Positions 28,808 through 62,511 of a stretch of DNA of 64,000 nucleotides are shown piece after piece (the first letter of the stretch is position 1; every line of letters starts with the position of its first letter). The stretch comes from a virus, in IMG/VR virus record IMGVR_UViG_3300042894_004766, positions 35,792 through 99,791 of that record; one strand, 5' to 3'. Below the pieces are notes generated by a model. It worked only from the letters and a program-made list of their open reading frames with translations. It searched no databases and was not told the DNA's origin. The translations under genes were made by a program, and so were the position numbers.

Positions 28808-29926
28808 ATGAGAGTTTTTATGATAACAGATACTCATTTTGGTATCTATCTAAATAATCTGGACAAATGGCAAAATATGATGGAATCTACATTTTATGAT
28901 TTTGTAATTCCTTATTTAAAAGAAAATGTTAGAGAAGGTGATGTACTAATACATCTTGGTGATTTATTTGATAATAGAACTAGTATACCAATAATAACTT
29001 TAAATAAAGTAGAAAAGATTTTAAAAGAGTTAAGTAAGATATTACCAGTTCATATAATGTTGGGAAATCATGACTTGTTTAATAAAGGATCTAATGAAGT
29101 AAACTCTGTTAGATTATATGGTTATATCGATAACATTACCGTATATGAAGAAACAACAACCTTAGAATTGGGTGGTCAAAGAATCGTTTTAATGCCTTGG
29201 GTTGAAAAACGTTTAGATATGGTCAATGAAATTAGATCTAATCAAGGTGATTATCTAATGTGTCACTCCGACTTAAATGGATGTAAAATGCACCTTAATT
29301 CAGTTGCTCATAGAAACGCTGATAAGATAGATGTAGAAGATTTTAAGTCGTATAAGAGAGCCTTTTCTGGTCATATACATATTCGCCAAGAGAATAGTAA
29401 TTTCACGTTTATAGGGTCTTTATATCAAATGGATAGAAATGATTATGGTGATCAAAAGGGAATAACAATGTTAGATTTATCTGATGATGAAGTTACTTTT
29501 ATACCAAATACATATTCACCTGTATTTAGAAAATATAATGTTATTTCAGAAACTGATGTTGATGGATTAGATGCTTTAAGAAATTCAAAAGATTATATTG
29601 ACTTATCTATCTCAAATAACTTACTTATTAGTAATAGAAAGTTAAGAAGAAAGTTAGAAGTTTTATTAGAAAATAGTGGATTTTCTTCTGTTGATTATAT
29701 TGATGATATAGTTACTAAGGTTGACGAATCTGTTGATACAACACCTGATGAAGAATTTGATGAAGAAAAATTAGATATTTCTATACAACTTGATTATGCT
29801 GATTATATAAAAGAGTATATAAACAAACAAAAGTATGATAATGATACTTTTAGAGAAGGAGTAGTAGCTGAATATGATGAGGTTATTAAAATTTATAATG
29901 AGAACTATAGTTCTAAAAAAGATTAA
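28808..29926 (+). CDS. gp47: Recombination endonuclease subunit (gp47/SbcD/Mre11-like)
   Basis: TDTHFG, LGDLFDNR, GNHD, SGHIH metallophosphoesterase motifs. Confidence 0.93.
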   Translation: MRVFMITDTHFGIYLNNLDKWQNMMESTFYDFVIPYLKENVREGDVLIHLGDLFDNRTSIPIITLNKVEKILKELSKILPVHIMLGNHDLFNKGSNEVNSVRLYGYIDNITVYEETTTLELGGQRIVLMPWVEKRLDMVNEIRSNQGDYLMCHSDLNGCKMHLNSVAHRNADKIDVEDFKSYKRAFSGHIHIRQENSNFTFIGSLYQMDRNDYGDQKGITMLDLSDDEVTFIPNTYSPVFRKYNVISETDVDGLDALRNSKDYIDLSISNNLLISNRKLRRKLEVLLENSGFSSVDYIDDIVTKVDESVDTTPDEEFDEEKLDISIQLDYADYIKEYINKQKYDNDTFREGVVAEYDEVIKIYNENYSSKKD

Positions 29927-39044: not shown

Positions 39045-42000
39045 TTACCAATTGAACCAACTGCTACCACTATTTCCACCACCTGCAACAGATTTAGTCT
39101 GTACATTACCTTCAGATGCACCAGTAATATGTTGATCTAAAGATACCGTAGTTTGATTTATATTACTTAATAATTGAATAATCATGTCTAATTGTGCATG
39201 AGTATCCATTTTTGGTTTACCTCCTGGTTTTCCTGGTGTTGTAGGTGCGGCCTTTTTGTCTCCAACTGCTGGACGTTTTGTTTTCGTACCATCATATTCA
39301 ACCAACTTACTAAATACACTTGCTCTTTCTTCAAGAGTTTTCATCATATTTTCTAAATTATCCTGATTCATTGAAGCTAATACTGCTAAATTACCAGTTA
39401 GATTTCTTATTAGGTTGACCTTCTTACCATCTATTGATGAAAGTGCACCACCAAATTTCCTCAATGATGTTGCTAACTTATCATAAGCACCTGCAATAGT
39501 AATCATACCTCTTGCTGCTTGTGAAATAGGATCTAAACCAAGTAATGATTTAACTCCACTAAAGAAACCAGAATTTTTGTTAGTACTAGTTAGATAATTT
39601 GCTAGTTTTGCATAATCCATTACGTTTTTAGATAAATTCTTCATATAATTAGGATCAATACTTTTTGAAAAAAATTGTCTTCCTGACCATATAGTTTTTG
39701 CTACTCTTACTAATGATAAAGCTACTAAATTAGTTTTCGCCAAACCTATTAAACTTGTATTTGCTAGACGACTACTTAGACTTTTGTATCCAGTTAAATT
39801 TCTCGTTAAACTTGTAACAAAAGCATTATTCATAGTGGTAAAATACCTTTTATTATTATGAATTATTCTTGCAGTTGCCACCATTAAAAGTACAATAACA
39901 TCTATGTTTAAAATACTTGATAAATCAACATTGACTAAACTAGTTGCAAGTTTAACATAATCTTTAATTGATTTTGATATATTAGTTATCCACGTACTTG
40001 GTGGATAAGATTTCCAAACAGCTAGTTTAACTTTACCAAATTTATTAGCAACTGAAACTATTGCATTAGCAACTGTGTTAATTCCATATACCATTTCATT
40101 TGCCGCTTCTGGGCCTGATTTAAACCAACCACTATTTTCATTCATATAAGTAAATACTGGTGCAAATGCTTGTAAAGCTCCTCCAACATTTTTACCCCAG
40201 TCTGCAGAAGGTGTATTTGATAAATCAAACTTAGACTTATTTAGTCCAAAAGCATCTGCTGCTGCAATTATACCATCTACAATAGTTAGAATACCTGTTT
40301 TCATATCTTCTGGTGTAACCTTTACACTAAACATGCCACCACTACTAAGTGCGGCATATACTGGTGCAAATGCTGCTATCGCACCACCAACTCCCTCTGC
40401 CCACTCTTTAGGTGGTCCTCCTTTAAAATCAACTTTTATTGACTTACCATCTTTATCTTTAGGATCAGAAAAATAGTTTGCCGCATCAACAATTCCTTGA
40501 GATACGGTTCTTATTGCATTTGCAAAGTCTTCTGGTCCAACTCCACCACCAAACAAACTCATTATTTTATTGGCTGCTAACATAGCATAGACTGGAGAGA
40601 ATGCCGCTAATGCAAGAGCTATTCCACCTGCCCATTCTAATGTAGGACCACCTTTAAAACTAACTTTCATTGGCTTACCATTTTTATCTTTAGGATCAGA
40701 AAAATAGTTTGCCGCATCAGCAATTCCTTGAGATACTGTTCTTATTGCATTTGAGAATTCATCAGGTCCAATTCCACCGCCAAATAAACTCATTATTTTA
40801 TTTGCTGCCAACATAGCATAGATTGGAGAGAATGCTGCTAATGCAAGAGCTATTCCACCTGCCCATTCTAATGTAGGACCACCTGTAAAATTACCTTTTG
40901 ATAATATTGCCGCGGAATCAACTATTGTTTGTGCAATCAATAAAACTGCTTCACCACCTGCAGCTAATGCTGTCATTCCTAATCCAAACGATAAAAGAAT
41001 TACACTACCTAAACCAGCCATAGCTAAACCAAATGCAGTTAAACTTATACCAACACCCATTGCCCATCCTATACCAGGATAGTTCTCATATTTACCTTTT
41101 GATAAAATATAAGAAGTTGCAACTATTACTGCTGCAATCCCTACTATAGCAAGTGCTCCTAATGCTAGTGCTGCCCCACCAATACCAGTTTCAATTATTA
41201 AACCAAATACTGTTGCAATTAAACCAAATGCTAATATAGAAGCACCTGTACCAAGTGCCCATTCCCAACCAGGATAATTATCATATTTACCTTCTGAAAT
41301 TAAAAGTGATGATACTGCTACAACTCCAGCTAGTATAATCATACATAATCCGCCTTCTATAATCTTCTTAATTCCTATTTTTGCAAGTACAAAAGCTGCA
41401 AATCCCATTGCAATTGCGGATATCGCAAAAACAATAGAGAATACTACAATATTAAATAATAGAGAATAGTCAATTGGAGTAGTTTCTACCAATATTTTAG
41501 AAGATAACATAATCGCAAGTGATAATGCAGTAAATAATAAAGGTAATACAACAACATCTCCTATTTTTATCTTTTTAATTGCAGGTGCCATTAGTTTTAA
41601 AGCAAACGCCAATACAACAAATACTATTGATATACCAATTGCTGTAAAGAATTGATCAAATCCTATAGGAGTTATTTGTGCTAGAAAGAATGATGATGCG
41701 GCTATTGCCATTGACATAGCAATTAGTAATAAAGGCATCAATATTGCGGCAACTGCAGCCTGTGCTGGGTCTAATCCTTTAAATGCACCTATTAGTTTTT
41801 TAATTCCAAATGAAATTACTGTAAACATTGCTGCAATTAAAATACCTGTCAGTGCTTGTGTAAATGATATTGGAACTATCATTTGTAATACCCAAGATGA
41901 TGCTGCAATACCCAATGCTATTGCAGGTAATATTAGAGGTAAGAATAGAATTGCTTTACCTAATGTTGTTATATCAGCTCCTAGTGCGTTTATCAATTTT

Positions 42001-42821
42001 TTAATTCCAAATGCAATTACTGTAAACATACCTGCGATTAAAATAGCGGTTATTGCTTGTGCAAATGATATAGGATTTATAAATGCTAGTACCCAAGATG
42101 ATAGTGTTATTCCTAAAGCTATTGCAGGTAATATTAGAGGTAAAAATAAAATAGATTTCATCAACGTTCCTATATTTTCACCTAGTGCGTTTATCAATTT
42201 TTTAATTCCAAACGCAATTACTGTAAACATACCTGCGATTAAAATAGCAGTTACTGCTTGAGTAAATGATATTGGTTTTATAAAAGATAGTATCCAAGAT
42301 GATACCATAATAGCCATAGACATTATAACCATAGTTGCACCCGCATCAATTGCCTGGTCTTCTGTAATCTCAGCTTCCGCAATCTTTTGAAATGCGTGAG
42401 CTATTAAAACAATTGCTAAACCAAGTGAGACAACTGATAGAAAATCAACCTTACCTATTATTTTAAATGCTAAACCAATTGCTAATACTGCAACAGCGAT
42501 TAAAAGTATTGTAGTTACACCCTTTTTCAGATCACTTTGTTTTTTAGGATCTTCTCCAGTTTCATCAATAGCATTTTTTTTGTCAGAATCTTTTTGTTTC
42601 TGCATCTCTAAAATAGTGTTTTGTTTCTCTAAAATCTTTTTAGTATCTGACTTAATAGATTTCAAACTAGTTGTAATCTCAGTTAGTTGTTTTGAGAAAT
42701 CACCACTTTGAAGAGCATTGGTAGTTGTAGTATTACTACCCTCTTTATTCTCAAGTGCTTTTGAGATCATTTCGAGTGAATCTGATAAATTATTTAATGC
42801 TTCTAATAACTGCTTATCCAT
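39045..42821 (-). CDS. Tape-measure-like protein with hydrophobic Ala/Gly/Ile repeats
   Basis: Long helical, highly hydrophobic protein with 67-aa and 77-aa internal repeats. Late promoter at 42827-42836 fixes the start at 42821. Confidence 0.65.
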   Translation of the reverse strand: MDKQLLEALNNLSDSLEMISKALENKEGSNTTTTNALQSGDFSKQLTEITTSLKSIKSDTKKILEKQNTILEMQKQKDSDKKNAIDETGEDPKKQSDLKKGVTTILLIAVAVLAIGLAFKIIGKVDFLSVVSLGLAIVLIAHAFQKIAEAEITEDQAIDAGATMVIMSMAIMVSSWILSFIKPISFTQAVTAILIAGMFTVIAFGIKKLINALGENIGTLMKSILFLPLILPAIALGITLSSWVLAFINPISFAQAITAILIAGMFTVIAFGIKKLINALGADITTLGKAILFLPLILPAIALGIAASSWVLQMIVPISFTQALTGILIAAMFTVISFGIKKLIGAFKGLDPAQAAVAAILMPLLLIAMSMAIAASSFFLAQITPIGFDQFFTAIGISIVFVVLAFALKLMAPAIKKIKIGDVVVLPLLFTALSLAIMLSSKILVETTPIDYSLLFNIVVFSIVFAISAIAMGFAAFVLAKIGIKKIIEGGLCMIILAGVVAVSSLLISEGKYDNYPGWEWALGTGASILAFGLIATVFGLIIETGIGGAALALGALAIVGIAAVIVATSYILSKGKYENYPGIGWAMGVGISLTAFGLAMAGLGSVILLSFGLGMTALAAGGEAVLLIAQTIVDSAAILSKGNFTGGPTLEWAGGIALALAAFSPIYAMLAANKIMSLFGGGIGPDEFSNAIRTVSQGIADAANYFSDPKDKNGKPMKVSFKGGPTLEWAGGIALALAAFSPVYAMLAANKIMSLFGGGVGPEDFANAIRTVSQGIVDAANYFSDPKDKDGKSIKVDFKGGPPKEWAEGVGGAIAAFAPVYAALSSGGMFSVKVTPEDMKTGILTIVDGIIAAADAFGLNKSKFDLSNTPSADWGKNVGGALQAFAPVFTYMNENSGWFKSGPEAANEMVYGINTVANAIVSVANKFGKVKLAVWKSYPPSTWITNISKSIKDYVKLATSLVNVDLSSILNIDVIVLLMVATARIIHNNKRYFTTMNNAFVTSLTRNLTGYKSLSSRLANTSLIGLAKTNLVALSLVRVAKTIWSGRQFFSKSIDPNYMKNLSKNVMDYAKLANYLTSTNKNSGFFSGVKSLLGLDPISQAARGMITIAGAYDKLATSLRKFGGALSSIDGKKVNLIRNLTGNLAVLASMNQDNLENMMKTLEERASVFSKLVEYDGTKTKRPAVGDKKAAPTTPGKPGGKPKMDTHAQLDMIIQLLSNINQTTVSLDQHITGASEGNVQTKSVAGGGNSGSSWFNW
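40451..40882. repeat. Internal direct repeat, 231-bp period
   Basis: AGGATCAGAAAAATAGTTTGCCGCATC at 40461 and 40692. Protein repeat GGPTLEWAGGIALALAAFSP.YAMLAANKIMSLFGGG... Confidence 0.85.
41780..42305. repeat. Internal direct repeat, 201-bp period (about 3 copies)
   Basis: CCTAGTGCGTTTATCAATTTTTTAATTCCAAA at 41980 and 42181. Protein repeat AILIAGMFTVIAFGIKKLINALG. Confidence 0.85.
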
Positions 42822-42912
42822 AAAAGTATATATTAAAAAACTTAATCCTTTTAACATTTTATATATTTTTTACTATAATAAATAATAATATATAATAAAT
42901 AAAATAAATCAT

Positions 42913-43693: not shown

Positions 43694-45025
43694 ATGAGTA
43701 AATTAGTTACCTTAAATGGTATAAATGATGAAGAATTATTAAATTCTTTATTTAGTAATGAAATATCTATTATAGAAGATATACAAGGAAGTAAAATTTG
43801 GGTTAATTGGAATGGTAAAGAATTCACTATTAAAACTAAAAGTATTTCAAGTGAGCCAATCAGTCTTATAGATTTGGCGATGCAGAACTATTATAATCCT
43901 GCAATTAATTATTTCAACTCTTTAGATAATAGAGTAAAAAGTCTATTGAATAGAAAATGGTGGTTTTGTTTTGAATATTTTCCAGACGAACAACCTGCTA
44001 ACATAGAGTATAATAGAGTTCCTAAAAATAAATTAGTTTTAACTGCGATAAATAAGTCAGGTAAGTATGAGTTTGTTTTAGAAGAATTGAATGAGTATGC
44101 AAGACTTTTTGATGTTGAGATTATACCAGTTGTTTTTCAAGGAAAACTAACTGATAAAATGATTGAAGCAATTAAATACTTTTTAAATACCAGTGAAGAA
44201 GACTTAGATTATATCTTTGGTGAGAAATCATTTACATTTTTCTTTTATAAAATATTAAATCCACTTTCTGAAGGTTCATTTTTAATGGATGATGATTTTC
44301 AAAAGAATATTGAGAAGTTGATTATTAGAAATAACTCAGATGATATGTCATTTGAACTATTAAATCCTTTATATACTAGATTAGGTGAAAATAATGATAC
44401 TGAGTTTGTTGAAATATACACTTTGATATTGATAAACTTTTTAAACTTCTGTCAATCTGTTGATTTAAAAGATTTAAAATTAAAAGGTTCATCAAAAGAT
44501 GAAATTTATATTTACTTAATATGTAAACTTTATAATATCTATATTAGTGAAGTAAAACAGGATCTATTGGACTTTGATTTTGTAGTACCAGAATTTTTTG
44601 ATAAAGATAAATTTAAAATAAATACAGAACTTATTCTAAATAAAGTAACTAAAGAATATTTATCGGAGTCTGAAAAACTTGAATATATCTTCAAGGTTAT
44701 TCTTGGTTCATTTAGCAAGAAAAGAAAAAAAGCAATTGGTATATTCACTGATAATACAGTAAAATTATTTAATAAGTTTATTGATGATATTGACGATCAC
44801 ATTGGAACTTACTTACAAAGAATTAGTGAGATAGAATTGACAAGAGCTGGTTTATTAGATTTTGGAGATTTCTTTGATATTCAATATGATGTTGATGGAG
44901 AAGGAGAAGTTTATCCAGATGTTTACTCTGAATTTGAAAAAGGAGTATCAAATGATAAAAAGAAAAAAGGTAAAGGTGGTAAAATGCCAATAGAACCAAT
45001 AAATACAACAAAAAAACCTACATAA
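43694..45025 (+). CDS. RNA/DNA ligase-fold protein lacking the catalytic lysine
   Basis: EDIQGS in place of EKxDG, FEYF, ARLFDVEIIPVVFQG, IEKLIIR. Confidence 0.6.
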   Translation: MSKLVTLNGINDEELLNSLFSNEISIIEDIQGSKIWVNWNGKEFTIKTKSISSEPISLIDLAMQNYYNPAINYFNSLDNRVKSLLNRKWWFCFEYFPDEQPANIEYNRVPKNKLVLTAINKSGKYEFVLEELNEYARLFDVEIIPVVFQGKLTDKMIEAIKYFLNTSEEDLDYIFGEKSFTFFFYKILNPLSEGSFLMDDDFQKNIEKLIIRNNSDDMSFELLNPLYTRLGENNDTEFVEIYTLILINFLNFCQSVDLKDLKLKGSSKDEIYIYLICKLYNIYISEVKQDLLDFDFVVPEFFDKDKFKINTELILNKVTKEYLSESEKLEYIFKVILGSFSKKRKKAIGIFTDNTVKLFNKFIDDIDDHIGTYLQRISEIELTRAGLLDFGDFFDIQYDVDGEGEVYPDVYSEFEKGVSNDKKKKGKGGKMPIEPINTTKKPT

Positions 45026-45050: not shown

Positions 45051-45260
45051 ATGAAAGAGATAAATTTAAAAATAAAAACAGTTAATGTTGAGACAAAATC
45101 TAGAAAACTTAGATGTGATTGGTCTACAGAGTTAGTAAAAGATGTTAATTCTTTTCATAATATTGATGCGGAGGCAGAATTAGAAAGGTTAGTGGTTGGT
45201 GAGATTAGAAAACAAAATAGAAAGAAAAAAATTGAAAATTTAACCAAACATACTGTTTAA
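45051..45260 (+). CDS. 69-aa stand-alone fragment of the major capsid protein (gp23-like)
   Basis: VETKSRKLRCDWSTELVKDVNSFHNIDAEAELERLVVGEI aligns to gp23 AKSRxLKAxYSxELAQDLxAxHGxDAxAELxxILxxEI. Confidence 0.8.
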   Translation: MKEINLKIKTVNVETKSRKLRCDWSTELVKDVNSFHNIDAEAELERLVVGEIRKQNRKKKIENLTKHTV

Positions 45261-45276
45261 TTTTGATATAAAAACT

Positions 45277-46509
45277 ATGTATATTGAAAACGTAATAGTC
45301 ACTAAAGAAAGCTCTGAAAGCGTAGCAAAACGCATAGATGATAAATTGTTTTCTCTTCAATTTTTGCCAGAATGTTTATATGGAATATCAACTGTAAAGT
45401 CATTAGAATTTAATGGAGTTAAACTTAAAACAAACTATTTAATTGATATAGTACATAATTTAATATTAAAGTATTACTTCAAAAAAGAAAATAGATTCGC
45501 ACTAAATGCAACTATTCTAAAGGATAAGTATGGTTATCTTTATAATTATTATATCAACTACTTAGTTTCAAATGGTATTTTGATACTTAAAACAAATTAT
45601 CAAAACGGAGTTACATCAAGAATATATGGTTTAGATGAAAGAATATTTACTAATAAAATAAAAAGATATAAAAATCTTGATAAAGTTCTACTAAAAAAGT
45701 TTAAAAATAAATTTATTGATATGATTCATATCAATGATACTTCTAAAGTGAGTTTAATTGAACCACTTATAAAGGAAAAATTAGTCTCTGATTTATTCAG
45801 TGTTAAAATCGAATATGATAGGGCTATTTTCTTTCTAGACTCCTTAAAACATCAAGATATAGACATCTATAACAGAAACATATACTCTGTTGATTGTATC
45901 AATGATAAACATATTTTTTACCACTTTGATGATTATGGTCGAATGCACACAAACTATACTATTCTTAAATCATTTATTAGAAAAAACTGTTTACTTATAG
46001 ATGGTGAAGAAACTTGTGAGATCGACATACCCAACAGCCAACCACTCTTTCTAACTAAAATAATTGATATGGATTCTAATCTAGTAGATCAAAAGGAACT
46101 TCTCTTATTTAAAAAACTTACCATATCAGGAACATATTATCAATATGTTATGAATCAATTAGGTGAGAGTAATAAGAAAAGAGTTAAAGAGATGACATAT
46201 AAGGTTCTTTTTGGAAGAAATATTGCTACAAGTAAAGTAGATAAGGATTTTAAAAAGTTATTTCCAACAATTCATCAGTTTATTAAAAATTATAAAAAAG
46301 AAAATGGTGATTATAGAGTTCTGGCATATGACTTACAAAAGGCGGAATCGGATTTAGTCTTTAATACCGTTATAAAGAAAGTAATGCAATTTTATCCAGA
46401 GATAAAACTAATAACAATTCATGATAGTATCGTTATACCTAGAAAATATAAGGAAGAAGTCAATCAAATTTTTGAGATAGAGCTCAAAAAAGAGTTTAAC
46501 ATAAACTAA
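45277..46509 (+). CDS. Minimal family-A polymerase / T7-RNAP-like palm protein with N-terminal wHTH-like region
   Basis: DDYGRMH, motif A EIDIPNSQP, motif B KRVKEMTYKVLFG, LQKAES, motif C TIHDS. No exonuclease domain. Confidence 0.75.
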   Translation: MYIENVIVTKESSESVAKRIDDKLFSLQFLPECLYGISTVKSLEFNGVKLKTNYLIDIVHNLILKYYFKKENRFALNATILKDKYGYLYNYYINYLVSNGILILKTNYQNGVTSRIYGLDERIFTNKIKRYKNLDKVLLKKFKNKFIDMIHINDTSKVSLIEPLIKEKLVSDLFSVKIEYDRAIFFLDSLKHQDIDIYNRNIYSVDCINDKHIFYHFDDYGRMHTNYTILKSFIRKNCLLIDGEETCEIDIPNSQPLFLTKIIDMDSNLVDQKELLLFKKLTISGTYYQYVMNQLGESNKKRVKEMTYKVLFGRNIATSKVDKDFKKLFPTIHQFIKNYKKENGDYRVLAYDLQKAESDLVFNTVIKKVMQFYPEIKLITIHDSIVIPRKYKEEVNQIFEIELKKEFNIN

Positions 46510-47261: not shown

Positions 47262-48032
47262 TTATTTTATATGAAACCACATAATTCTATTTTTTAGACT
47301 TGGTGTTTCCTTCATAAAGTATTTATCTTCATCAATTGATTTTATTACAAATAAACCATCTTCACTACCACCATTTATATCTGCTCTTAAAATAATAAAT
47401 TTATCTTTTGAGATTATATTAGATTCAATTAAGGTATAATTTGCTGATTTTACAAGAGTCTTATCTTCAAAATATTTTGATATAGTTTCTGGATGAACAA
47501 TTAAAGTAGTTCCTGGACCACGTCTATTACTCATTGCAATATAACTACCACAACTAACTAATTTAGACATAGTTCTTCTTTGATTATATTCAAAGTTTTC
47601 CCTAGAAGTTTTATCAGGATCATTAGTTATAGTTAAATCAAATGATGACATTCCATTTTTTAAAACAGGTTGTCCTTGTGTAAATTTTTCAATATATTTT
47701 AATAGATCTGTATGTAAATCTTCATAAGAAGTAAATTTAGTTGCTTGTACAGTCATTGAAAATATTTTTGGACTAATAGTCTGTGTATAATTATCATTTT
47801 TTGGTAGATCAACTCTATTATCCCAAGCAGATTCTTGTTTTTCACCAGTTACAATATCAATTGCCAATTCTCGATTTTGTGATTTTACCTTCAATTGTTC
47901 TTCTAATGTGTCTTCTTCTATATAATCCATGTAAGATATAGTAGCAACTGACCCATTATGTTGTTTTTCGGAAAAATTACATAAGTATTTTATTTCCTTT
48001 TTTATTTCATCTTCGGTTTTAGAAAGTATCAT
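47262..48032 (-). CDS. Degenerate major-capsid-protein paralogue
   Basis: PKIFSMTVQA, SKLVSCGSYIAMSNRRGPGTTLIVHP, DKFIILRA..GLFVI. Confidence 0.55.
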   Translation of the reverse strand: MILSKTEDEIKKEIKYLCNFSEKQHNGSVATISYMDYIEEDTLEEQLKVKSQNRELAIDIVTGEKQESAWDNRVDLPKNDNYTQTISPKIFSMTVQATKFTSYEDLHTDLLKYIEKFTQGQPVLKNGMSSFDLTITNDPDKTSRENFEYNQRRTMSKLVSCGSYIAMSNRRGPGTTLIVHPETISKYFEDKTLVKSANYTLIESNIISKDKFIILRADINGGSEDGLFVIKSIDEDKYFMKETPSLKNRIMWFHIK

Positions 48033-49564: not shown

Positions 49565-49591
49565 AAAAAGAGGATATTATCCTCTTTTTTT
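49563..49591. terminator. Bidirectional intrinsic terminator
   Basis: AAAAAAGAGGATA-T-TATCCTCTTTTTT. Confidence 0.8.
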
Positions 49592-50576
49592 ATGTTCTTG
49601 ATTGATACCACATTGATTTTGGCTCTTCCTTAGGTTGTTCCAATTGTTTTGGCTCTTCTTCTTTAATTTCTTCTTTTTTAGGTAATTCTCTTGGTATATC
49701 TGCAATACTATAACGAAACCATTTATTTGGGTTTTTATAATCTGCTGAACCTCTAAGTGTTTTCGTATCATCATACAACTGATTTACTTTTATACCATAT
49801 TTTAAAGCATGAATACATTTTTGGAAGTTTCTAGAATCTCCTAATAATGAAAATACCTTCCAAATTTCCCCTTCTATCTGATCATCTATAAGACTTGGTA
49901 GTAATTTCTTAAACTTAAATGCACTATTTCTATCTGAGAATATGCCATAATAATAAACATCACGATATCCCTGACCAGCTGGCATATATACCTGTTTTGG
50001 ATTGGCTTGAGGAAGTCTTAAACTAATGTTTAATTCACTACAATCATCATAAAGTTCTTGTAATGTGTATTGTTTTGGTGGATCTTCTTCATCCCAATCA
50101 TCTGGACTATTCCAACTTTCTAATCCATCATCCCAATTAGATAAATTTACTTTAAAAGAAAATAACGGAACATCCCATCCTGGCAATATACTACCAATTC
50201 TTGTTTTTGTTTCTTCTAATGGATCAAAATAAAATTGTATTGTAAAGTATAACTCTCTTTGTGCATCACTCCAAAGATCAAGCATTTCTTCTTCTGATAT
50301 ATCTTCATATCTTGTATTAATATCACTTACTACATTTGAACCCGGTGTTTTCGCATTTAGAATAAACTTTGCCTTAGGATTTGTAAATTTAACTTCATGA
50401 GTTAAATCACTATAACTTTTAACAAGTTCAATATTATAAACACCCCATTCTTTTTCTGATCCGTAATCTTTTAACTTTTTACCTTTATCTACTTTGTGAG
50501 GCATATACATAAATCTTTGTCCAGCATCTCTATAGATTTTAGGTGTTAGTTCTTCATAAGTTTTAATCCATTTCAT
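49590..50576 (-). CDS. CTS-tagged hypothetical protein
   Basis: Starts MKWIKTYEEL. Late motif at 50581-50590. Confidence 0.75.
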   Translation of the reverse strand: MKWIKTYEELTPKIYRDAGQRFMYMPHKVDKGKKLKDYGSEKEWGVYNIELVKSYSDLTHEVKFTNPKAKFILNAKTPGSNVVSDINTRYEDISEEEMLDLWSDAQRELYFTIQFYFDPLEETKTRIGSILPGWDVPLFSFKVNLSNWDDGLESWNSPDDWDEEDPPKQYTLQELYDDCSELNISLRLPQANPKQVYMPAGQGYRDVYYYGIFSDRNSAFKFKKLLPSLIDDQIEGEIWKVFSLLGDSRNFQKCIHALKYGIKVNQLYDDTKTLRGSADYKNPNKWFRYSIADIPRELPKKEEIKEEEPKQLEQPKEEPKSMWYQSRT

Positions 50577-50627
50577 AAACTATATATTATTTTTTAAACT
50601 CACATTTATATTCTTCATATAATAAAT

Positions 50628-50777
50628 ATGAGAGAACTAACATTAGAAGAAAGAGTACAATTGTTTTGTAATAAATATAAAAAACATATTTCTTATGGTT
50701 TTGACTTGACACATGAAGATTTGGATAAACATGATATTCCTAGGAATATTGAAACTAATTTGAAAAAAGATATATAA
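50628..50777 (+). CDS. Small hypothetical protein, 49 aa (not in ORF track)
   Basis: Manual translation MRELTLEERVQLFCNKYKKHISYGFDLTHEDLDKHDIPRNIETNLKKDI. AAAC-N18-TATAAT upstream. Confidence 0.55.
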   Translation: MRELTLEERVQLFCNKYKKHISYGFDLTHEDLDKHDIPRNIETNLKKDI

Positions 50778-62012: not shown

Positions 62013-62387
62013 ATGCTATATATGTACCTGAATAATAAAGAATTATACATTGAGATCATAGTGTCAAAAGCACAAGGTCGATTAACGAGAAATGCGGAAA
62101 AAATGCTAGAATTACTAGCGAAAAAAACAATAAAAAAAATGAGATACTGGTCTAATGATGACAAGTTAGATTGCTACCAAAGTGGTTTATTAGACATGTT
62201 TCAAAACTGGTATAACTTCAATGAAGATAAGTCGATTAATGCGTTTGCTTATTTCACAGAGATATTCAAAAGAGGATTGGCAAAAGGATGGAATGACCTT
62301 TATAAAAAGAAAGGTGATAATGAACATCAAATTAGACTTATATCAATAAATAGTGCCAATGACGGAAATGGATTACACTCAATTTAA
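62013..62387 (+). CDS. gp55: Late-transcription sigma factor (gp55-like)
   Basis: YLNNKEL, NFNEDKSINAFAYFTEI, as in the gp55 N(F)D..K..NPFAYFTQI motif. Confidence 0.85.
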   Translation: MLYMYLNNKELYIEIIVSKAQGRLTRNAEKMLELLAKKTIKKMRYWSNDDKLDCYQSGLLDMFQNWYNFNEDKSINAFAYFTEIFKRGLAKGWNDLYKKKGDNEHQIRLISINSANDGNGLHSI

Positions 62388-62388
62388 C

Positions 62389-62511
62389 ATGAACAACCTA
62401 TTTGATATAGTTGTAGATCCAGGATTTCGTACCGCAACTATAACAAGGGGATTAATTTTTCCAAAGGAAGTTATAAGAAAGAAAAAGATAAAAAACTTAT
62501 TTAATTTTTAG
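62389..62511 (+). CDS. Small protein, 40 aa (not in ORF track)
   Basis: MNNLFDIVVDPGFRTATITRGLIFPKEVIRKKKIKNLFNF, starting 1 nt after the gp55 stop. Confidence 0.5.
   Translation: MNNLFDIVVDPGFRTATITRGLIFPKEVIRKKKIKNLFNF

What the first reader, a model, noticed from the sequence alone, without database searches (positions are those of the whole stretch)
45051..45260. Stand-alone 69-aa mini-gene copying the most conserved segment of the major capsid protein
Seen: an intact ORF with its own start and stop, flanked by a terminator and the next promoter. It reads INLKIKTVNVETKSRKLRCDWSTELVKDVNSFHNIDAEAELERLVVGEI. Known: this matches the gp23 signature (AKSRxLKAxYSxELAQDLxxxHGxDAxAEL), and several defence systems (Lit, CapRelSJ46) are triggered by the major capsid protein. 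The capsid-like part is fused to a foreign basic tail RKKKIENL. Inference: a decoy or competitor for a capsid-sensing immune receptor, or an assembly inhibitor of competing phages, rather than a decaying pseudogene.
Basis: partly seen in the sequence, partly recalled or inferred. Interest (0 to 1): 0.8.

Follow-up and report, generated by a model that had tools for sequence, protein, structure and literature searches.

The report
Tagged capsid-segment mini-protein, huge phage
A giant bacteriophage keeps, as a separate and selected 69-residue gene, a copy of the capsid-protein segment that joins capsid building blocks; it carries a short tail shared by other mini-proteins that copy signature blocks of other essential phage proteins, a gene class with no described function.

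Summary
ORF 45051..45260(+) is intact and matches Pfam Gp23 (E=1e-12). It maps to T4 gp23 residues about 250-316: P-domain strand, short acidic P-domain helix and spine helix. It is not a pseudogene. It sits between the same two conserved genes in 39 of 65 unique related huge-phage loci, has at least 278 database clusters (all 'hypothetical'), and shows dN/dS 0.16-0.33 among close relatives. The flanks hold no MCP remainder.

Two corrections. The 'foreign basic tail' aligns with the end of the MCP spine helix and is a protein-level tag. The Lit activator (Gol) lies in a different part of gp23.

New here: the tag recurs on other 40-99-aa proteins. Their bodies are other MCP blocks (significant) or look like blocks of family-B polymerase, terminase, helicase and prohead protease (motif level). 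The mini is nearer canonical T4-type MCPs (44-64 bits) than the phage's own MCP (17-21 bits). A compact HK97-fold MCP paralogue lies 2 kb away and mostly co-occurs.

Function is untested. My best guess is a trans-acting mimic of a capsid contact element. This scan noted the same kind of gene earlier on another genome (e1-5857496, e1-5857506).

The parts
45051..45260 (+). 69-aa mini-gene, a copy of the gp23-type MCP segment (T4 residues about 250-316)
   Evidence: Conserved in synteny. At least 278 clusters. dN/dS 0.16-0.33.
45051..45125 (+). Residues 1-25: the P-domain/E-loop-return strand equivalent (…VNVETKSRKLRCDWS), predicted extended and unpaired
   Evidence: AF2 model, pLDDT 58-64, no secondary structure. 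Aligns with T4 gp23 I259-S271. Conserved block SVEVKAETRxLRAxWT in the family.
45126..45152 (+). Residues 26-34: short helix TELVKDVNS, equivalent to the short acidic P-domain helix of gp23. D31 is nearly invariant and aligns with T4 D277.
   Evidence: The role of this helix in intercapsomer charge contacts and head-length mutations is from PMC9546572 section 13.
45168..45248 (+). Residues 40-66: one long helix, the spine-helix equivalent, running through the tail
   Evidence: AF2 H40-66, pLDDT 85-93. Invariant R57 aligns with T4 R304.
45207..45242 (+). Residues 53-64, RKQNRKKKIENL: this subclade's variant of the shared C-terminal tag (elsewhere R(K/R)xx(I/V)x(K/N)(I/L)(F/Y))
   Evidence: Alignment A2. 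Strict tag found in 32 ORFs against 0-1 in controls. Synonymous codon variation and no shared flanking DNA. The window's own tail ends in L-T, not F/Y, and does not satisfy the strict pattern; it is placed by alignment.
43694..45025 (+). Upstream conserved 443-aa gene (RNA-ligase-like, lead only), the synteny anchor
   Evidence: 80 related loci at 49-99% identity. Atlas neighbours carry PF09414 RNA_ligase. No Pfam, PDB or NCBIfam hit.
45277..46509 (+). Downstream conserved 410-aa gene (family-A polymerase palm-like, lead only), the synteny anchor
47262..48032 (-). 256-aa compact HK97-fold paralogue of the resident MCP, which mostly co-occurs with the mini-gene
   Evidence: AF2 pLDDT 85.6. Foldseek matches to T4 gp23/gp24 and HK97 at probability 1.00. 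44-51 bits to resident MCPs and none to canonical MCPs. Co-occurrence 27/6/2/16.
62353..62511 (+). Second tagged mini-ORF of the window (52 aa, …LFDIVVDPGFRTATIT…RKKKIKNLFNF); its body resembles a block of the gp21-type prohead protease
   Evidence: The source assignment is suggestive only.

Best explanation
What it is (shown): a conserved, independently translated 69-aa protein that copies one contiguous segment of a gp23-type major capsid protein. The segment comprises the P-domain strand, the short acidic P-domain helix that in T4 makes charge contacts between capsomers at the quasi-threefold axes, and the spine helix. The helix end has been converted into a basic tag. It belongs to a class of tagged mini-proteins in a clade of 430-600 kb phages, each made of a signature block of a T4-core protein plus the same tag.

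How it most likely works (inferred): it does not fold alone. Its N-terminal strand is unpaired and its helix exposed, so it acts in trans as a molecular mimic. It would dock, by strand addition and the acidic helix, onto the surface that normally receives this element in gp23-type capsid proteins, giving a non-productive or modified contact. This is the logic of a 'microprotein' or dominant-negative fragment. The tag would give all class members a common partner or fate.

Because the copied block is far closer to canonical T4-type capsids than to the phage's own capsid, the likeliest target is the capsid protein of competing T4-type phages in the same cell. The phage's own capsid is a less likely target.
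For: Homology to gp23. The whole length aligns with the MCP, tail included.

Conserved and selected: syntenic in 39 of 65 unique loci; at least 278 clusters at 90% identity and over 100 at 50%; dN/dS 0.16-0.33.

Not globular, with an unpaired strand and a long helix. The segment contains the T4 head-length mutation cluster A268/A275/D285/D287 and the intercapsomer acidic helix.

Closer to canonical than to resident MCP: 44-64 against 17-21 bits; tree stems 0.75 against about 2.4.

The tag is a protein-level module on small ORFs only. Other tagged minis copy other MCP blocks. Others show polymerase, terminase, helicase and protease motifs.

The same module is re-used in other small-protein architectures in other phages. 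It is the fastest-diverging gene of its neighbourhood and is present, absent or disrupted in different relatives.

Huge phages are documented to target core structural genes of competing phages with CRISPR spacers: PMC7162821.
Against: No binding, expression or phenotype data exist. No RNA data could be obtained.

The polymerase, terminase, helicase and protease assignments rest on short motifs and weak scores, and catalytic-core blocks are not obvious poison peptides. The class therefore may share a logic other than assembly interference.

Greater similarity to canonical MCPs could also reflect an old duplicate that kept ancestral residues while the resident MCP diverged; the tree is unrooted and poorly resolved.

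The immediate neighbours look like nucleic-acid enzymes rather than head genes. Co-occurrence with the resident-type HK97 paralogue p256 hints at a role in the phage's own capsid.
Confidence: 0.35

Rival explanations
1. Antagonist or decoy for host immune sensors that recognise conserved blocks of hallmark phage proteins. The fragments would occupy the sensor without providing the full fold needed for activation, and the tag would add affinity or a common fate.
For: The class copies blocks of proteins of the kinds known to trigger defences (capsid: PMC9712102 listed; Gol-Lit). It evolves fast and is variably present. Leads suggest an RNA-ligase-like neighbour and a translation-repair-rich contig.
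Against: A decoy should mimic the phage's own proteins, yet the MCP block resembles canonical T4-type capsids far more than the resident MCP. Known MCP triggers activate when bound, so a fragment could be harmful. This segment is not the Gol region. No defence gene or sensor is linked to it here.
Confidence: 0.2
2. An accessory of the phage's own giant-capsid assembly. The mini would work with the compact HK97 paralogue p256 or with the resident MCP, for example to tune intercapsomer angles and capsid size or to cement special positions.
For: It co-occurs with p256 (27/6/2/16 unique loci), and where p256 is missing the mini is often degenerate (L092, L144, L124/126). In relatives lacking both, the full MCP lies beside the same locus. 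The copied segment controls head length in T4.
Against: Co-occurrence is not corrected for shared ancestry, and L127/128 keep p256 without the mini. p256 has its own hairpin and spine helix. The mini is unlike the resident MCP. The same tag sits on mini-proteins with polymerase, terminase and helicase motifs, which a capsid role does not explain. A structural part would not be expected to be the most diverged gene of its neighbourhood.
Confidence: 0.2
3. A ligand for a host factor that binds linear blocks of nascent capsid protein (EF-Tu, chaperonin), used to redirect translation or folding capacity.
For: The Gol block of gp23 binds EF-Tu, and this was suggested to be general among T4-type phages (PMC3014915). 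Mosaic proteins in other phages string conserved MCP blocks, including the Gol-equivalent block, in non-native order, so the blocks rather than the fold are under selection. Huge phages are proposed to intercept translation (PMC7162821).
Against: No evidence that the 250-316 segment binds any host factor. This does not explain the polymerase and terminase blocks or the tag.
Confidence: 0.1
4. A functionless remnant of a captured or duplicated capsid gene that happens to stay open.
For: Short length. Absent from a third of related loci and frameshifted in L156. High divergence.
Against: The start, length, strand block and tag are kept across relatives down to about 25-40% identity. dN/dS is 0.16-0.33. 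There are hundreds of intact database members. No MCP remainder lies in the flanks.
Confidence: 0.05

Closest known systems
T4 gp23 major capsid protein (Pfam PF07068; PDB 6UZC, 5VF3, 7VS5), residues about 250-316
   Same: Significant sequence homology over the whole mini-protein. The order of elements is the same: strand, short acidic helix, spine helix. Conserved D (T4 D277) and R (T4 R304).
   Different: Only about 13% of the protein. No A-domain, E-loop hairpin, N-arm or insertion domain, so it cannot form a capsomer. The helix end is turned basic.
T4 gp24 vertex protein and other MCP paralogues, including this phage's own 256-aa HK97 paralogue
   Same: Derived from the capsid gene family and kept as an extra gene.
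   Different: Those are complete HK97 folds. The mini is a single segment and scores lower against gp24 (21 bits) than against gp23 (30 bits).
Satellite capsid-redirection proteins: SaPI CpmB (scaffold-helix mimic), SaPIbov5 Ccm (full MCP homologue), PLE TcaP (PMC5644958, PMC8569155, PMC10945586)
   Same: Small or capsid-related proteins that act by mimicking an assembly contact to change or block another element's capsid.
   Different: They are encoded by satellites, not by the phage. CpmB mimics scaffolding protein and Ccm is a whole capsid protein. None is a stand-alone capsid segment, none carries a shared tag, and none belongs to a multi-protein class.
Eukaryotic 'microProteins' (small single-motif paralogues that titrate their larger relatives); from my own knowledge, not checked here
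   Same: The same design logic: a short paralogue keeping only an interaction element of a larger protein.
   Different: A different domain of life. No evidence yet that the mini binds its larger relative.
Gol peptide of gp23 (activator of the Lit protease; PMC3014915)
   Same: A short conserved linear region of gp23 with activity of its own.
   Different: Gol lies in the first quarter of gp23 and is not a separate gene. The mini copies residues about 250-316.

Membership tests
gp23-type major capsid protein (Pfam PF07068) | Significant match to the family profile | tested here: met
   E=1e-12, 48.6 bits against a cut-off of 24.4, but only profile positions 131-185 of 376.
gp23-type major capsid protein (Pfam PF07068) | Complete HK97 fold able to form capsomers (A-domain, P-domain sheet, E-loop, N-arm) | tested here: not met
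   69 aa. The AF2 model has an extended N-terminus and two helices, pTM 0.33. It is homologous to a segment and is not a capsid protein.
Pseudogene or gene remnant | Disrupted frame, or the remainder of the gene in the flanks | tested here: not met
   Intact ATG to TAA. The flanks are conserved unrelated genes. No other Gp23 match in the contig.
Pseudogene or gene remnant | Neutral evolution (dN/dS near 1) and no conservation across relatives | tested here: not met
   dN/dS 0.16-0.33 for pairs with unsaturated dS. Conserved in 39 of 65 unique loci and at least 278 clusters.
Lit activator (Gol region of gp23) | Corresponds to the 29-residue region in the first quarter of gp23 | tested here: not met
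   It maps to T4 gp23 259-304. The Gol location is from PMC3014915.
Satellite capsid-redirection proteins (CpmB, Ccm, TcaP) | Encoded by a phage satellite; homologous to scaffold C-terminus (CpmB) or whole MCP (Ccm) | tested here: not met
   It lies between conserved genes of the phage itself in dozens of huge-phage contigs. The homology is to an MCP segment only.
T4 prohead core proteins (gp67, gp68, gp22) | Match to a prohead core or scaffold family | tested here: not met
   PHROG scans of the mini and ten other fragment minis hit only 'major head protein'.
Tagged signature-block mini-proteins (class defined here and in scan note e1-5857496) | Length about 40-100 aa with the body homologous to a conserved block of a T4-core protein | tested here: met
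   69 aa; the body is the gp23 block.
Tagged signature-block mini-proteins (class defined here and in scan note e1-5857496) | C-terminal tag R(K/R)xx(I/V)x(K/N)(I/L)(F/Y) | tested here: inconclusive
   The window's subclade has the aligned variant RKKKIENL-T (R57 invariant, I61 nearly invariant), which fails the strict pattern at the last position. Most family members carry the strict tag.
Sliding-clamp-binding C-terminal tail | The same tail on replication or late-transcription proteins of the phage | tested here: not met
   The tail is confined to 40-99-aa ORFs, and no large ORF of G003 or G000 ends in it convincingly. Binding to a clamp could not be tested.

The most novel reading that the evidence does not exclude
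Huge phages encode a multi-member system of tagged mimic peptides. Each copies the most conserved block of a T4-core protein (capsid, prohead protease, terminase, polymerase, helicase) in its canonical form, and all share one address tag. The system would sabotage the assembly and replication proteins of competing T4-type phages in the same cell, or blind host sensors of those blocks. It would spare the phage's own proteins, of which the capsid protein at least is diverged.
Probability: 0.3. Interest if true: 0.9.

Novelty: categorically new. Interest (0 to 1): 0.78.

Why it matters
If the mini-protein and its tagged relatives act as mimics of conserved blocks, they would be a new kind of weapon or shield in virus-virus or virus-host conflict. 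They would also be natural peptide inhibitors aimed at the least mutable parts of phage machinery.

The result makes a testable link between a defined capsid contact element (the T4 head-length cluster) and a natural trans-acting copy of it.

It also gives a name and a recognisable signature (signature block plus tag) to hundreds of 'hypothetical' small proteins in huge-phage genomes. Gene callers and annotation pipelines currently either ignore these or mislabel them as capsid or polymerase fragments.

Tried and rejected
1. Split or rearranged MCP, with the mini as the missing piece of the 256-aa paralogue. Rejected: p256 has its own hairpin and spine helix, and mini versus p256 N-terminus gives only E=0.13.

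2. Complex prediction of mini + p256: no verdict (score 0.00). It is not evidence either way.

3. Tail as the footprint of a repeated DNA element, intron or mobile element. Rejected: codons vary synonymously and the flanks share nothing.

4. Tail as a clamp-binding motif: no large protein ends in it, so no support.

5. Duplication of the resident MCP as the source. Disfavoured by profile scores, but the unrooted, poorly resolved tree cannot exclude an old duplicate.

6. Prohead core or scaffold identity: no PHROG or Pfam support.

7. Sigma-70 promoter and terminator flanks: not supported.

8. Pfam and PHROG naming of the very short non-MCP minis: mostly no hits. Their source assignments stay at motif level.

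Only L207 could be examined.

11. Literature searches found no description of stand-alone capsid-segment genes.

Full report
THE OBSERVATION. The window holds an intact ORF at 45051..45260(+), ATG to TAA, 69 aa. It matches Pfam Gp23 at E=1e-12 (48.6 bits, cut-off 24.4; residues 1-55 on profile 131-185 of 376) and PHROG 138 'major head protein' at E=1.2e-12. The window is the last 64 kb of a 99.8-kb viral contig that CheckV puts at 17% complete, which implies a phage of roughly 590 kb. This ORF is the only Gp23 match in the contig. A profile of the family aligns with T4 gp23 residues 259-304 in solved structures (E=4e-6) and more weakly with gp24. The window protein therefore covers about T4 250-316.

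IT IS A GENE, NOT DEBRIS. The upstream 443-aa gene has 80 relatives in viral contigs (49-99% identity; contigs up to 597 kb). The mini-ORF lies directly after it and before the conserved ~410-aa gene in 39 of 65 unique loci. It is diverged to 25-40% identity but keeps its start, its length (56-73 aa), an N-terminal block SVEVKAETRxLRAxWTxE(L/M)..DL and a C-terminal motif. In the most distant relatives the two flanking genes abut without it, and in L156 it is frameshifted.

The large protein database holds at least 278 clusters of 59-75 aa at 90% identity, all 'hypothetical'. The exhaustive search finds over 100 stand-alone representatives at 50% identity before any full-length MCP appears. dN/dS among close relatives is 0.16-0.33; more distant pairs are saturated.

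The flanks (25 and 16 nt) contain no capsid remainder.

THE TAIL IS NOT FOREIGN. The family profile aligns end to end with the clade's own full-length MCPs (557-596 aa, found in the near-complete sister genomes G001-G005). The aligned MCP residues are about 330-393, and the tail RKKSINKIF lies over the MCP's ISKQIVAKIFE at the end of the spine helix. The invariant R57 matches T4 R304.

The AF2 model of the family has an extended, low-confidence N-terminus (1-25), a short helix (26-34) and one long confident helix (40-66) that runs through the tail, with pTM 0.33. This is the secondary-structure order of the capsid segment, without a fold of its own.

WHAT THE SEGMENT DOES IN A CAPSID. In T4, the head-length mutations A268V, A275T, D285V and D287V/N lie by 'the short P-domain helix'. 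This is a negatively charged helix at the quasi-threefold axes that makes charge contacts with neighbouring capsomers (PMC9546572 section 13). All these positions fall inside the mini-protein's segment, and its nearly invariant D31 aligns with T4 D277.

WHOSE CAPSID DOES IT COPY? The mini profile scores 44-49 bits against 75 foreign full-length gp23-type MCPs, and a profile of those MCPs scores up to 64 bits against the minis. It scores only 17-21 bits against the resident clade's MCPs. No foreign locus has a mini-ORF. In an unrooted, poorly resolved tree of the segment, the minis lie between a tight canonical clade (stem 0.75) and the resident clade (stem 1.75). They evolve about ten times faster than the resident segment in the same genomes. 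Capture from a canonical T4-type capsid gene is the simpler reading, but an old duplicate is not excluded. Among close relatives the mini is the most diverged gene of its neighbourhood: 80-84% nucleotide identity against 93-97% for the flanks.

A SECOND CAPSID PARALOGUE NEARBY. The 256-aa ORF at 47262..48032(-) folds confidently (pLDDT 85.6) as a compact HK97 domain. Its top structural matches are T4 gp23/gp24 and HK97 at probability 1.00. It resembles the resident MCP (44-51 bits) and not canonical ones. It mostly co-occurs with the mini: 27 loci have both, 6 the mini only, 2 p256 only and 16 neither (not corrected for ancestry). Relatives lacking both have the full MCP beside the same locus. 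It has its own hairpin and spine helix, so the mini is not its missing piece.

THE WIDER CLASS. The near-complete sister genomes carry further dispersed mini-ORFs that hit only the major head protein family, each over a different block and each with the same motif, roughly R(K/R)xx(I/V)x(K/N)(I/L)(F/Y):
- the N-terminal block (L178);
- the spine helix alone (L172, L177, L174);
- the RGxGNY block (L175, L176);
- the PYIP…SRY block (L168, L179, L174).

The strict motif occurs in 32 unique ORFs of the loci against 0-1 in shuffles, and in 11 ORFs of the whole G003 genome against 0-2. It is almost confined to ORFs of 40-99 aa. Its codons vary synonymously and the flanks share no DNA, so it is a protein-level tag. 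This tests and supports an earlier scan note (e1-5857496).

Other tagged minis carry signature strings of other T4-core proteins:
- In this contig, G000 29530-29766 (L206) has YDFTSLYPS, family-B polymerase motif A. Its family has 42 clusters, two of which JGI named 'DNA polymerase elongation subunit (family B)'. Its only PHROG hit is a DNA polymerase family at E=0.022.
- In this window, 62353..62511 resembles a block of the gp21-type prohead protease.
- In G003 there are LKMILNSSYG (polymerase motif B), NSRQTGKS (terminase Walker A), IVIVDYF (DnaB-type Walker B) and a DUF2793 tail-fibre-like body.

These non-capsid assignments are at motif level only. The canonical polymerase strings occur in the minis and in no large ORF of G003 or G000, although a resident family-B polymerase exists in the sister genomes.

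In other phages the same capsid module appears in other small architectures. These include compact mosaics of MCP blocks in non-native order (L207, 136 aa; P0239; P0289) and fusions to an unrelated region (P0236, P0275, P0228). Such proteins cannot fold as capsid proteins, so selection acts on the blocks.

MECHANISM. Shown: homology, conservation, selection, lack of an independent fold, the tag, the class and the canonical affinity. Inferred: the protein works in trans as a mimic of a capsid contact element. I favour a target in competing T4-type phages (0.35). The reasons are that the copy is canonical rather than self-like, the gene is fast-evolving and dispensable, and huge phages are known to aim CRISPR spacers at core structural genes of competitors (PMC7162821).

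The rivals are an antagonist of host sensors (0.2), an accessory of the phage's own giant capsid working with p256 (0.2), a ligand of a host factor such as EF-Tu or chaperonin (0.1), and a remnant (0.05). Nothing here measures binding, expression or phenotype.

LIMITS. The single complex prediction gave no verdict. The window's own tail is a variant (…RKKKIENLT…) that fails the strict tag pattern and is placed by alignment. Co-occurrence statistics ignore shared ancestry. Seven literature searches found no description of such genes. The nearest precedents are satellite capsid-redirection proteins (CpmB, Ccm, TcaP), which differ in origin and architecture.

Noticed in passing
window 47262-48032 (-): A 256-aa compact HK97-fold paralogue of the resident major capsid protein (pLDDT 85.6; Foldseek matches to T4 gp23/gp24 and HK97). 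It is unannotatable by Pfam or PHROG from this sequence alone, and it mostly co-occurs with the mini-gene. It could be a vertex or minor capsid protein.
   Followed up: yes
window 62353-62511 (+): A second tagged mini-ORF (52 aa, GTG start, ends RKKKIKNLFNF). It is conserved in G003 (50571-50723), and its body resembles the 'FD(A/I)V(A/V)DP' block of gp21-type prohead proteases.
   Followed up: partly
same contig, outside the window: L206 1031-1264 (G000 29530-29766, +): A 78-aa tagged mini-protein carrying family-B DNA polymerase motif A (YDFTSLYPS) and the tail IRKRKIRNIFQ. Its family has 42 clusters, two of which JGI named DNA polymerase family B.
   Followed up: yes
L207 1249-1659 (+); proteins P0239, P0231, P0289, P0252: Other phages have compact proteins that string conserved MCP blocks together in non-native order. 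P0239 and P0231 begin and end with the same FKF(L/F)RG motif, as if cut from a repeat.
   Followed up: partly
proteins P0236, P0275, P0228: The strand and spine-helix module fused to an unrelated C-terminal region with a shared 'GWFMKGxFESLL' motif, of unknown function.
   Followed up: no
window 43694-45025 (+) and 45277-46509 (+): The two conserved flanking genes have no Pfam, PDB or NCBIfam match. Atlas leads suggest an Rnl2-type RNA-ligase-like protein and a family-A polymerase palm-like protein. The latter agrees with scan note e1-6013124.
   Followed up: partly
G002, G003, G005 (sister genomes): The resident family-B DNA polymerase matches fall in two separate large frames far apart in the genome (for example G005 203506-203952 and 317539-318897). 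This suggests a split polymerase.
   Followed up: no
L156 7348-7541: In one close relative the mini-gene is broken into two frames (38 and 30 aa). This is either a natural loss or an assembly error.
   Followed up: no
window 39045-42857 (-) and 49590-50576 (-): Like the mini-gene, these two genes (a 1270-aa protein rich in membrane-like repeats and a 328-aa protein) are much more diverged among close relatives (about 83-86% nucleotide identity) than their neighbours (93-97%).
   Followed up: no
L120 7378-7962; L159 7394-7681: Inserted genes next to the locus start with the leader MK(Y/H)(I/L)K(T/K)YE(N/Y)F, which scan note e1-6013116 reported on many proteins of this window.
   Followed up: no
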